Source: a virus
Lineage: Duplodnaviria; Heunggongvirae; Uroviricota; Caudoviricetes
Virus record (IMG/VR): IMGVR_UViG_2897352509_000011
Direction: 5' to 3' (one strand)
DNA: 64,000 bases
Position 1 is the first letter of the stretch. Each line of letters opens with the position of its first letter. The position numbers are program-made. Positions 6,001 through 9,000 of this stretch are shown here, in pieces.

Positions 6001-9000
6001 GTCGGCCAGAAGGCCCGCCTCTGAATTATCCGACGGACAAACCGGGAACAGTGTAATTTCCCGGCAGGAGCGAAAAAATTGAAAGGCGCATCTTACTCTT
6101 TTCGCTTTCAAAAAAAAGAGTGGTCATCGCGTTAACACACCGCCCTGAGATGAATTAGTGATGTTTTGGCTGCACCGCAACATACATTTCGATATCCCAG
6201 TACCCATCTTCCGCGCCATTGTTCAAATAAACCTCGAAGCAGGGCTTTGGTAACATTTCATAAGCACTGTCCTGCAAGAGGCTATTAAAGAACTGATACC
6301 AGGGTTTAGCAAAATCATCACCGACTACACGAGCCACCGCAACCGCATACTGACCACCTGAAATTTCTGTCAGAATGACGCCCTCACTGTTTTCGGGGAG
6401 CGTAAAGTTATTCGGCACCGTCACGACGGTGTCGCAGCGTAATTTTTCGGCGGGTGTTTCATCTGGATTGTCGTAAAAGACAGCAACCCACTCCTTCGGC
6501 ACAATATTTTTGCTATCTACCCACATCATCAACTGCTCAAACCCTTTCTTTACCGTCTGCTCCCACGGGCCAACGAGATGGAAACCTGCAACGGTACGTT
6601 TATCTTCCTGCTTAATCTCGTAGTTCATGACGCCTCCATTAATACTGTTTTTATATACAGTATAGTTGCAATATTAAAACCACAAGGAATGAGTGTTGAT
6701 TATGCGAGCAGACTCGCACTCCTGCCAGTCTGCTGTAAAAGAAAGGTCAGGCCTTATGGTGGAAATAATCACTCAGGCGGGAAAACATGCTGCCTTCCCC
6801 GACAGATTCCAGGGTAACCAGCGGCCAGTGCGCCACCTGTTTATCACGGTCGTAAAGTTCAATTTCCCCTACCCGCTGATGGGAGCTAATTGGCGCGGTG
6901 AGCTCTTTACCATCAAGGGTATATTTGGCTTTGATATGTGGAATTTCGGCTTTCGGTAGCACCATCCAGAACTCTTGTTCCGTTCCCAGGGCGATATTTT
7001 CTTTATCGCCATACCAGATGCGTTCCGTACCGACCTTTTTCCCACGGTGCAAAATTTGCACCGTAGTAAAGTTTTGTTGCCCCCAACGCAGTAATTTTCT
7101 TGCCTCTTCCTCACGACCTTTTGCACTGTCAGCCCCCATTACCACTACAATGAGACGACGCTGCCCATCTACAGCCGAAGCAATGAGGTTAAAACCGGCA
7201 CCAGAAGTATGACCCGTTTTCAGGCCGTCAACATTCATGGTTTTATCCCACAATAACCCGTTACGGTTTTGCTGAGTGATACCGTTCCAGGTGAGGCTTT
7301 TCTCACTGTACATATGATAAAACTCGGGCTCGCCGTGGATGATAGCGCGAGAAAGCACAGCTAAATCGTAAGCCGAGCTATGCTGGCCTGGTGCATCCAG
7401 ACCATGCACTGTTTCAAAATGCGTATCCTTGAGATGCAGCCTCTCGGCATAGTTGTTCATCATTTCAACAAACTGCCGTTGCCCACCGGCAATATAGTCA
7501 GCCAGCGCAACACAAGCGTCATTTCCGGAATCCACAATTAAACCACGGCTTAAATCACGTACCGATACGCGATCGCCCTCTTTCAAAAACATCAGTGAAG
7601 AACCGACAAACACCAGATTATCTTTCGCCCACGCATCGCGCCCCACGGTGACAATATCGTCTGGCGTAATGCGATGACTATCGATAGCGCGATCCACGAC
7701 ATAACCCGTCATCAGCTTTGTCAGGCTGGCGGGATTGCGCTGTTGATGCTCATTACCTGCGGTGAGGATCTGTCCGGTGGTGTAATCCATCAGTACCCAG
7801 GACCCGGCTTGAATTTCTGGAGGCTGAGGTGAAAAAGGAATGTTTTCCGCCGCAAAACCAGACGATAAGTTAAAAACGAACAAAGAAGCAGCAATAATAA
7901 GACGGCGTTTCAACAGCAAACCCTCAGGAGTTTCAAATAGCTGTTCTTTTTACGGAAATACTTATGAACTGGCTGGAATAAAGTGCAAGAAAATGTGACT
8001 ACCCTCGCATTTTTATCTGACATGATCTGTTGCCACTCGCTGTCAAATTGTTGCGCTAAAGCTGATTAGCACGGTGATATTTGATACTCTGGCAGACAGC
8101 AGAAATAACGGATTTAACCTAATGATGAATGACGGTAAGCAACAATCTACCTTTTTGTTTCACGATTACGCGCAACACCCCTGAGAACCGCCATGAACAA
8201 GTGTTTCATGATTTGTGATTTTAGTTTGGTACGCAATTTGGTACACAACACAATTTTCACTTCAGTGGGTAGTCATCAAACTCACCATAACGAGCATCGT
8301 TGATGATGTATGTTATAACCACAAACATCACATCTGGACTAGTTCCGTTTTCATGAGCGGGTATTTGTTTACGCCTCCCTTTCTGCAAATCCTAAAGATG
8401 AGATTTTGGGGTTTTGGGATATCTTTTATCCTCAGTTCTCTATCCATTATGCAAACCAGTAATGAACCATCACCGTGTGATAGTGAGGCGTCTGCCACGA
8501 TAAGCGCAGAGAAATGATGCAATGGTGGGCGGACTGGCTTGATGAAAAGGTAGAGTGAGCGACCTTAAACTATCGAATAGAACAAAGTCTTGCAATCCAG
8601 TGCAAAGCTTTGTGCGCCTCAGTTTTGTCTAAGCGTTCTACTGAAAACATAGTAAAATCGGTAACGGCTGGAAATCATTCAATACTCGCACTATCGAAAG
8701 TTCGCCAGCCAGCCGTGGCACGTTCTTGCATACGACGTGCCGCGGATCCTATTATTCTAGTATGAAATCCCTAACCGATTTCAAATTCTCCAGACTGCTC
8801 AGATTCTCTTTTATCCCACGCTAGCGCTGATAAATCTCGTCATTGCAATCGACCTGCGCTATCGCTGCCGCAGTTCTTCCAGTTTCTGCATCGATAACTC
8901 CATCTTCTGAGCAATAAACCTCACCTATGCAATATTTTATGTCAATTATTTCAATTGCATTAATATCTTGAATGGATTACATAGAGTTAATGTATCCAGT

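What the first reader, a model, noticed from the sequence alone, without database searches (positions are those of the whole stretch)
8122..8200. Prophage junction inside the 5' end of sbcB
Only the first 16 codons of sbcB are present (8122-8169) before the sequence diverges into AT-rich prophage-end DNA. I recall sbcB as an integration site for Stx2c phages. The host would lack intact exonuclease I unless the phage end restores the reading frame.
Basis: partly seen in the sequence, partly recalled or inferred. Interest (0 to 1): 0.45.

Follow-up and report, generated by a model that had tools for sequence, protein, structure and literature searches.

The report
Stx2c prophage junction in sbcB
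This is the well-known attachment site where Shiga-toxin-2c phages insert into the start of the E. coli exonuclease I gene (sbcB); in sequenced lysogens the phage's other end supplies a new start, so the reading frame is rebuilt rather than destroyed.

Summary
Window 8122-8170 is the first 49 nt (16 codons plus 1 nt) of sbcB. From 8171 the sequence is the int-distal end of a lambdoid Stx2c prophage that fills the rest of the window.

The crossover core is the 13-bp TTTCACGATTACG at 8158-8170. It is identical to the published and GenBank-annotated "type 2851" attP core. The predicted attP is contiguous in free phage genomes (mEp234, HK544, HK140, Sf101, E212). Two candidate integrase arm-type repeats, TTTGGTACRCAA, lie at 8225-8248.

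The other junction lies about 1.4 kb beyond the window. In EC4115, whose prophage is almost identical, the int-proximal arm supplies an ATG and 11 codons in frame. That rebuilds a full 474-aa SbcB (MTDTDKQPTFLFHDYE...), which RefSeq annotates as intact.

Of 5426 complete E. coli genomes, 581 carry this fusion. All 24 phage contigs with an integrase 59-100% identical and enough upstream sequence carry an equivalent surrogate sbcB start at the same distance from int. The gene-preserving design is therefore conserved.

Expression of the rebuilt gene was not shown.

Verdict: a real, already known integration site. The "loss of ExoI" implication is probably wrong. Low interest.

The parts
6747..7913 (-). 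dacD, the native divergent neighbour of sbcB (context)
   Evidence: ORF list. The EC4115 and K-12 annotations show the same arrangement.
7914..8121 (+). Native dacD-sbcB intergenic region. It holds the original sbcB upstream signals, now separated from the gene body by the prophage.
   Evidence: Collinear with K-12 up to 8170. Only weak sigma-70 consensus matches were found. The last host-lineage SNP against EC4115 is at 8106.
8122..8170 (+). sbcB 5' stub: codons 1-16 plus the first base of codon 17
   Evidence: 49/49 identity to K-12 sbcB.
8122..8184 (+). Residual 20-codon ORF, MMNDGKQQSTFLFHDYAQHP*, running from host DNA into phage DNA
   Evidence: Translation.
8158..8170 (+). 13-bp att core TTTCACGATTACG, which holds the site of strand exchange. 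It encodes F13-H14-D15-Y16 and the first base of E17.
   Evidence: Identical to the annotated attP 'type 2851' of mEp234 and HK544 and to the annotated 'duplication due to insertion of stx2c phage' in phage 1717. Published as CGTAATCGTGAAA in PMC4159516. In EC4115 host-type sequence lies 5' of it at this end and phage-type sequence 5' of it at the other end. Asp15 and Glu17 are metal-binding residues of ExoI (PMC3675492).
8171..8325 (+). Int-distal arm of attP, the part shared by otherwise unrelated phages
   Evidence: Conserved in mEp234, Sf101, HK544, HK140 and E212. HK544, HK140 and APC_JM3.2 lose similarity about 150-155 nt past the core.
8225..8248 (+). Two tandem 12-nt repeats, TTTGGTACGCAA and TTTGGTACACAA: candidate integrase arm-type binding sites
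   Evidence: Repeat family D5. TGGTACRC occurs 7 times in the window against 2.6 expected, and two of the copies lie 12 nt apart here. The octamer is kept in all phages compared, apart from the R position. Three more copies lie in the int-proximal arm. The integrase has an Arm-DNA-binding domain. Binding itself was not tested.
8171..64000 (-). Lambdoid Stx2c prophage, with its late genes on the minus strand. It continues about 1.4 kb past the window end (int, int-proximal arm, second core copy).
   Evidence: 99.7% identical overall to EC4115 NC_011353.1 and identical over 8107-37000. Annotation. The core-to-core length in EC4115 is 57,212 bp.
9237..9887 (+). nleG7, a type III effector gene carried as cargo at the prophage end
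   Evidence: Pfam T3SS_NleG, E = 4.7e-48. EC4115 annotation.
41438..42678 (-). stx2c operon: B subunit 41438-41707, A subunit 41719-42678
   Evidence: Pfam SLT_beta and RIP. No differences from the EC4115 stretch annotated 'Shiga toxin Stx2c subunit B'.
63809..64000 (+). Small HTH gene resembling an excisionase, the last gene before int. Its 3' end overlaps the 3' end of int, whose body is outside the window.
   Evidence: ORF. Its mEp234 homologue is annotated as similar to an excisionase. The Pfam AlpA and HTH_17 matches are below threshold.

Best explanation
Window 8158-8170 is one of the two copies of the 13-bp crossover core left by site-specific integration of a lambdoid Stx2c phage into codons 13-17 of sbcB. 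The phage uses a 2851-type tyrosine integrase and attP. Shown: the integrase, a P4-like tyrosine recombinase with an arm-binding domain, is encoded just beyond the window. Inferred: it recombined attP with the core in sbcB, which overlaps the codons of the catalytic Asp15-x-Glu17 motif. Shown: the native promoter region and the first 16 codons stay here as a 20-codon stub joined to the int-distal arm, which carries two candidate arm-type sites. Shown in EC4115 and other lysogens, inferred for this genome: at the other end the int-proximal arm carries a surrogate 5' end, namely an in-frame stop, an ATG and 11 diverged codons. This fuses in frame to the rest of sbcB and gives a 474-aa ExoI with a changed N-terminus (MTDTDKQPTFLFHDYE instead of MMNDGKQQSTFLFHDYE). 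Integration therefore preserves the sbcB reading frame but replaces its start codon, 5' UTR and promoter with phage DNA. Inferred, not tested: the rebuilt gene is expressed and active.
For: - **Stub.** The first 49 nt of sbcB are present with an exact break at 8170/8171.
- **Core.** The 13 bp equal the annotated and published attP core.
- **attP.** An attP assembled from the two prophage ends is contiguous in free phage genomes: full length at 93.8-96.3% in mEp234, EC.P3, E212 and Sf101, and about 70% of it in HK544, HK140 and APC_JM3.2.
- **Arm repeats.** Candidate arm-type repeats lie on both arms, and the integrase has Arm-DNA-bind_3 and Phage_integrase domains.
- **Boundary.** Host-lineage SNPs against EC4115 stop at 8106, and 8107-37000 is identical to EC4115. 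The boundary therefore falls between 8106 and 8171, the interval that contains the core.
- **Rebuilt ORF.** In EC4115 a full 474-aa ORF is annotated as sbcB. It has RNase_T and Exonuc_X-T_C domains and aligns end to end with PDB ExoI chains. The same intact annotation appears in four other lysogens, one of which has a pseudogenised int.
- **Prevalence.** 581 of 5426 complete E. coli genomes carry the int-arm-sbcB fusion, and 552 carry the junction seen in this window.
- **Conserved design.** All 24 IMG/VR loci with an integrase 59-100% identical and enough upstream DNA carry a start codon, about 11 codons and the T-F-(L/Y)-(F/I)-H-D-Y-E codons 206-208 nt from the int start. These codons show synonymous variation, and the piece joins to E. 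coli-type or to other SbcB bodies.
Against: - The int-side junction is outside the window, so restoration in this particular genome is inferred from near-identical prophages.
- The standard scan (at least 9 of 12 hexamer matches, 16-18 nt spacer) found no sigma-70 promoter in the int-proximal arm. A relaxed scan gives only a candidate with a suboptimal 19-nt spacer, TGGACA-19-TATATT.
- No clear Shine-Dalgarno sequence precedes the surrogate ATG.
- No transcript, protein or activity data were found.
- The STEC literature speaks of 'disruption' of sbcB.
Confidence: 0.9

Rival explanations
1. Integration functionally knocks out or strongly reduces ExoI. The ORF is rebuilt on paper, but it is cut off from its promoter and is not adequately transcribed or translated, or the changed N-terminus impairs the enzyme.
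For: The native upstream region stays with the stub, 57 kb from the gene body. No homology to the native upstream region is detectable in the phage arm beyond the 35 nt next to the core. No consensus promoter or strong Shine-Dalgarno sequence is present in the arm. sbcB null mutants are viable (general knowledge), so loss would be tolerated.
Against: The surrogate start and N-terminal codons keep the same position and frame across integrases down to 59% identity, with synonymous codon variation. That pattern is hard to explain if the fusion were not expressed. In the five lysogens whose annotation was fetched, sbcB is a complete CDS without a pseudogene flag, including one with a decayed int. 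The native upstream region also lacks strong consensus signals, so weak prediction is uninformative. Changes to the protein are confined to residues 1-8, before the RNase_T domain match begins at residue 12.
Confidence: 0.15
2. The resemblance of the phage arm to the sbcB 5' end is only decayed extended att homology, for example a relic of ancient imprecise excision. It is not selected, and frame restoration is incidental.
For: Within E. coli the arm alleles differ little (97-100% identical for nearly all), so selection cannot be measured there. Homology to sbcB extends only 35 nt from the core.
Against: Divergent relatives keep a start codon (ATG, TTG or GTG) and the frame. Most have an in-frame stop just upstream of it. 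The T-F-(L/Y)-(F/I)-H-D-Y residues are kept while third codon positions vary, and the upstream residues differ freely. Against native sbcB the E. coli arm has an in-frame 3-nt deletion, and three of its four substitutions are synonymous.
Confidence: 0.07
3. This is not a site-specific junction. It could instead be a deletion, a rearrangement, a substitution or an assembly chimera that happens to end in sbcB.
For: The window's chromosomal flank (1-8106) is about 1.2% different from EC4115, while the prophage is almost identical to EC4115's. No complete genome matches the junction region at 100%.
Against: The break falls exactly at the published 13-bp core. The same junction is found in 552 complete genomes. 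attP is contiguous in phage genomes. A flank that differs while the prophage stays identical is what independent lysogenisation of another lineage would give.
Confidence: 0.02

Closest known systems
Phage 2851 and other Stx2c phages of O157:H7 integrated in sbcB (for example Stx2-converting phage 1717 and the EC4115 and TW14359 prophages)
   Same: Same 13-bp core, same arms, same gene order and same stx2c cargo. The window's prophage is identical to EC4115's over 8107-37000 and 99.7% identical over the whole window.
   Different: The chromosomal flank is not O157:H7-like: about 1.2% divergent from EC4115 and 99.8% identical to phylogroup-A-type strains. There are also two short mosaic patches at 37-38 kb and 47-48 kb.
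Non-Stx phages with the same int-attP module: mEp234, HK544, HK140 (siphoviruses), and Sf101 and E212 (P22-like)
   Same: Integrase 98-99% identical, the same core, the same arm repeats and the same surrogate sbcB start. Sf101 has been shown by junction sequencing to sit in the 5' end of sbcB.
   Different: The rest of these genomes is unrelated and they carry no stx. Similarity of the int-distal arm ends about 150 nt past the core in HK544 and HK140.
Phage 21 and e14 at icd, and phages that insert in tRNA genes: gene-preserving integration in which attP carries a copy of the gene end (from my own knowledge of A. Campbell's reviews on prophage insertion sites, not read here)
   Same: The phage carries a diverged copy of the part of the target gene that it displaces, so the gene stays whole after insertion.
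   Different: Those phages replace the 3' end, which leaves the promoter and start codon untouched. Here the 5' end is replaced, so the start codon, N-terminus, 5' UTR and promoter all become phage DNA.
Stx phage insertions described as disrupting their target genes (933W/Sp5 in wrbA, Stx1 phage in yehV)
   Same: Lambdoid Stx prophages at fixed chromosomal sites, used for insertion-site typing of O157.
   Different: From my own knowledge, not tested here, those insertions interrupt the target gene. In sbcB lysogens a complete ORF is re-formed.

Membership tests
2851-type int/attP integration at sbcB | 13-bp core TTTCACGATTACG at the host-phage boundary inside sbcB | tested here: met
   Window 8158-8170 is identical to the annotated attP of mEp234 and HK544, to the annotated duplication in phage 1717, and to the published sequence.
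2851-type int/attP integration at sbcB | The core is duplicated at both ends of the prophage | not testable with these tools
   The second copy is expected about 1.37 kb beyond the window end. It is present in EC4115, whose prophage is almost identical, at NC_011353.1 position 2720134.
2851-type int/attP integration at sbcB | The two prophage ends join into a contiguous attP in free phage DNA | tested here: met
   An 813-nt predicted attP matches over its full length in mEp234, EC.P3, E212 and Sf101. HK544, HK140 and APC_JM3.2 cover about 70% of it.
2851-type int/attP integration at sbcB | A tyrosine integrase with an arm-binding domain is encoded next to attP | tested here: met
   The EC4115 int has Arm-DNA-bind_3 (E = 8e-18) and Phage_integrase (E = 1e-16) domains. 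The gene body lies outside the window; only its last ~20 nt overlap 63981-64000.
2851-type int/attP integration at sbcB | Repeated arm-type sites on both attP arms | tested here: inconclusive
   TTTGGTACRC occurs twice at 8225-8248 and three times in the int-proximal arm, and the copies are conserved across phages. Integrase binding was not tested.
Stx2c-converting lambdoid prophage | stx2 A and B genes of subtype c, downstream of Q and the tRNA genes | tested here: met
   SLT_beta and RIP domains at 41438-42678. Three tRNA genes at 42771-43014. No differences from the EC4115 stretch annotated Stx2c B subunit.
Gene-preserving integration (attP carries a surrogate gene end) | The phage arm supplies an in-frame replacement for the displaced part of the gene | tested here: met
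   An ATG plus 11 codons precede the core in frame in EC4115, in four other lysogens and in five phage attP sequences. An equivalent piece is present in 24 of 24 integrase relatives of at least 59% identity.
Gene-preserving integration (attP carries a surrogate gene end) | The rebuilt gene is full length with its catalytic motifs intact | tested here: met
   474 aa. RNase_T matches residues 12-187 and Exonuc_X-T_C residues 211-471. The protein aligns 1-474 to PDB ExoI chains, and the H-D-Y-E motif is kept.
Gene-preserving integration (attP carries a surrogate gene end) | The rebuilt gene is expressed and active in the lysogen | not testable with these tools
   Only weak promoter candidates were found, and no expression data were found in the literature.

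The most novel reading that the evidence does not exclude
Because the phage replaces the 5' end of sbcB rather than the 3' end, ExoI expression in lysogens may be under phage-supplied signals. Its level would then be set by a promoter in the int-proximal arm during lysogeny. On induction it could be raised by read-through of the pL early-left operon, which points towards the rebuilt sbcB and runs antisense to int. Such rewiring could tune host 3'-5' ssDNA exonuclease activity, with possible effects on Red recombination or on reverse-transcriptase defences whose cDNA SbcB degrades (a DRT10 preprint reports such a role). About one in ten sequenced E. coli would then carry a rewired sbcB.
Probability: 0.12. 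Interest if true: 0.5.

Novelty: already known. Interest (0 to 1): 0.2.

Why it matters
For this window it settles the annotation. The 49-nt piece is the displaced 5' stub of sbcB at a classic Stx2c phage attachment site. It is neither a pseudogene of unknown origin nor an artefact.

The STEC typing literature treats an occupied sbcB site as disrupted. Sequence comparison indicates instead that the phage rebuilds the reading frame with its own start codon and upstream DNA. This design is conserved across the whole sbcB-targeting integrase clade.

Lysogens should therefore not be assumed to be ExoI-deficient. Whether ExoI levels change in the roughly 10% of E. coli genomes that carry this fusion is a small, testable question.

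Tried and rejected
- **Promoter and terminator scans.** The int-proximal arm gave nothing at the standard threshold. The junction region gave counts no higher than shuffled sequence. A relaxed scan gave only a candidate with a 19-nt spacer. None of this decides expression.
- **Homology to the native upstream region.** I looked for similarity between the native dacD-sbcB intergenic region and the phage arm, to test whether the phage carries a copy of the native promoter. Nothing appears beyond the 35 nt next to the core: local score 20, reached by 33 of 300 shuffles.
- **Degenerate scan of species representatives.** I scanned 185,579 species-representative genomes for the peptide DKQPTFLFHDYET, to see whether the surrogate N-terminus is native to another species. 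There was a single hit, in an E. coli contig. No other species representative encodes this exact peptide, so the scan gives no sign that it is native elsewhere.
- **Rfam scan of 7800-11200.** Only a sub-threshold CssrB match (26 bits against a gathering score of 76). Rejected.
- **Literature.** I searched for a statement that sbcB stays intact in lysogens and for expression data on ECSP_2762. Nothing was found, and the 2008 phage 2851 paper is not held in the library.
- **NCBIfam and Pfam on the 291-aa ORF at 10111-10986.** No family matched.

Full report
**1.

Window 8122-8170 is identical (49/49) to the first 49 nt of K-12 sbcB. The translated match covers residues 1-16, MMNDGKQQSTFLFHDY, and no other part of sbcB occurs in the window. 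The upstream genes yeeA, sbmC and dacD are in their native order, with dacD divergent from sbcB.

After 8170 the similarity to K-12 ends. The frame reads AQHP and stops at 8182-8184, which leaves a 20-codon stub ORF. GC content falls to 0.389 in 8001-10000.

**2. What lies beyond the break**

The window aligns end to end with E. coli O157:H7 EC4115 (NC_011353.1, about 2654765-2718764) at 99.7% identity. In that record the stretch after the break is a lambdoid prophage. Its content, in window order:

- nleG7 and a 291-aa gene with no family match
- tail fibre, lom, J, and the tail and head genes
- terminase and lysis genes
- stx2c A and B, three tRNA genes, and Q
- replication genes, then cI and cro
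- the early-left operon, interrupted by an IS1203 element
- a small HTH gene resembling an excisionase

In the window itself I confirmed the following:

- stxB at 41438-41707 and stxA at 41719-42678
- the tRNA genes at 42771-43014
- nleG7 at 9237-9887
- the HTH gene at 63809-64000

**3. The junction is the known 2851-type att site**

I compared three sequences: the window junction, K-12 attB, and the int-side junction of EC4115. They share exactly TTTCACGATTACG (window 8158-8170). Host-type sequence lies 5' of it in the window. Phage-type sequence lies 5' of it at the other end in EC4115.

The same 13 bp are annotated as 'prophage attachment site (type 2851)' in phages mEp234 and HK544. They are annotated as 'duplication due to insertion of stx2c phage' in Stx2 phage 1717. 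They are published as the attP of phages 2851 and Sf101, and Sf101 was shown by junction sequencing to insert in the 5' end of sbcB (PMC4159516).

I assembled an attP from the two prophage ends. It is contiguous over its full 813 nt in the free phage genomes mEp234, EC.P3, E212 and Sf101. About 70% of it is contiguous in HK544, HK140 and APC_JM3.2, where similarity stops about 150-155 nt past the core. That point marks the outer limit of the shared int-distal arm, roughly window 8171-8325.

Within that arm lie two tandem repeats, TTTGGTACGCAA and TTTGGTACACAA, at 8225-8248. Three more copies lie in the int-proximal arm, and the TGGTACRC octamer is kept in all phages compared, apart from the R position. 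The integrase has an arm-DNA-binding domain and a tyrosine recombinase catalytic domain. The repeats are therefore plausible arm-type sites, although binding was not tested.

Differences between the window and EC4115 in the chromosomal flank stop at 8106. From 8107 to 37000 the two are identical. The boundary between host and phage ancestry therefore falls between 8106 and 8171, the interval that contains the core.

**4. What happens to sbcB**

The core covers codons F13-H14-D15-Y16 and the first base of E17. Asp15 and Glu17 are metal-binding residues of exonuclease I (PMC3675492).

In EC4115 the second core copy is 57,212 bp away. It is preceded by phage DNA that reads TAG ACA ATG ACA GAC ACA GAT AAG CAA CCT ACC TTC CTC and then the core, in frame with the body of sbcB. 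The product is 474 aa and begins MTDTDKQPTFLFHDYETFG. It has both ExoI domains, aligns over its whole length with crystallised ExoI, and is annotated in RefSeq as a complete sbcB.

Four other lysogens that I fetched have the same arrangement. One of them has an int with an internal stop, so the rebuilt ORF has stayed intact there although int has decayed.

Of 5426 complete E. coli genomes, 581 carry the int-arm-sbcB fusion and 552 carry the junction seen in this window. They come from many hosts and lineages, not only O157.

Against native sbcB the phage piece has an in-frame 3-nt deletion and four substitutions. Three of the four are synonymous.

**5. Is the surrogate 5' end maintained by selection?**

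Within E. coli the alleles are too similar to tell. I therefore collected relatives of the integrase from viral contigs.

All 24 loci with an integrase 59-100% identical and enough upstream DNA carry the same kind of piece. At 206-208 nt from the int start codon, and divergent from int, lies a start codon (ATG, TTG or GTG), usually just after an in-frame stop. About 11 variable codons follow, and then codons for T-F-(L/Y)-(F/I)-H-D-Y-E.

In prophage-form loci the piece runs on into an SbcB body, either the E. coli type or types that differ from it (for example ETFGKSPSLDRPAQFAGLRTD). In attP-form loci it stops a few codons later.

The conserved residues are encoded with varying third positions: ACC/ACT/ACG, TTC/TTT, CTC/CTA/CTT, CAC/CAT, GAT/GAC and TAC/TAT. 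This is the pattern expected of a coding sequence under purifying selection. Part of it must also reflect matching of the core to each host's own sbcB.

Integrase relatives at 57% identity or less lie next to what translates like a tRNA 3' end. The sbcB-targeting integrases thus form a distinct group among the relatives recovered, and the more distant relatives appear to target a tRNA gene.

**6. What remains unshown**

The int-side junction of this particular genome was not seen.

Expression of the rebuilt gene is inferred only:

- The arm has no consensus sigma-70 promoter at the standard threshold. The best candidate has a 19-nt spacer.
- No strong Shine-Dalgarno sequence precedes the ATG.
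- The arm shows no detectable homology to the native upstream region.

The native upstream region gives equally weak predictions, so these scans do not discriminate.

The early-left operon points towards the rebuilt sbcB and is antisense to int. Read-through on induction is therefore possible but untested. I found no transcript or activity data.

**7. Comparison with what is known, and verdict**

sbcB is the standard Stx2c phage site. All 74 Stx2c phages were in sbcB in PMC4645166, and the site is used in O157 insertion-site typing (PMC8309913 and PMC3519850). The 13-bp core is published and annotated in GenBank.

The principle of an attP that carries a copy of the displaced gene end is classic for icd and for tRNA genes (my own knowledge). 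The less usual feature here is that the 5' end is replaced, so the start codon and the upstream signals become phage DNA. The papers I could read call the site 'disrupted' and do not mention that the gene is rebuilt, but the RefSeq annotation already shows it.

The implied loss of exonuclease I is probably wrong.

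Noticed in passing
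window 1-8106 versus 8107-64000: The chromosomal flank differs from O157:H7 EC4115 by about 1.2% (98 differences). It is closest, at 99.8%, to phylogroup-A-type strains and is 98.5% identical to MG1655. The prophage is identical to EC4115's over 8107-37000. No complete RefSeq genome matches the junction region at 100%. This looks like the same Stx2c phage lysogenising a non-O157 lineage, or recombination near the O-antigen region.
   Followed up: partly
window 37001-38000 and 47001-48000: All differences from the EC4115 prophage fall in two short patches: 78 differences in the lysis-gene region and 21 near the ORF6N/ninE genes. This pattern suggests mosaic replacement rather than point mutation.
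   Followed up: no
window 10111-10986 (-): A 291-aa ORF between nleG7 and the tail-fibre genes has no Pfam or NCBIfam match and is annotated 'hypothetical protein' in EC4115. Its position in the effector-cargo region suggests a possible uncharacterised effector.
   Followed up: partly
window about 58390-59600, 27424-30008 and 20143-20869: The EC4115 annotation of sequence identical to the window shows an IS1203 element splitting the exo (YqaJ) recombinase gene, a frameshifted portal gene and a split minor tail protein L gene. The prophage may therefore be defective for excision-independent steps of particle production.
   Followed up: no
window 18531-20126: An antirepressor (Ant) gene and two Arc-family genes sit in the middle of the tail-gene block, next to the split tail protein L gene.
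   Followed up: no
window 42939-43014 (-): ARAGORN calls the third tRNA upstream of stx2A tRNA-Met (anticodon CAT), whereas RefSeq annotates it tRNA-Ile. It is probably a lysidine-modified Ile2-type tRNA.
   Followed up: no
loci L062-L091 (IMG/VR), upstream of int: Integrase relatives at 50-57% identity have no sbcB piece. Next to int they have a sequence that translates like a tRNA 3' end (...RFDSCRGH...). The sbcB-targeting integrases therefore appear to be related to tRNA-targeting P4-like integrases.
   Followed up: partly
window 8257-8388 (-): The outer part of the int-distal arm overlaps a short ORF that ends ...DARYGEFDDYPLK. In phage HK140 a complete UmuD-like gene (390 nt) lies at the corresponding position. 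The window ORF looks like a remnant of that gene.
   Followed up: no
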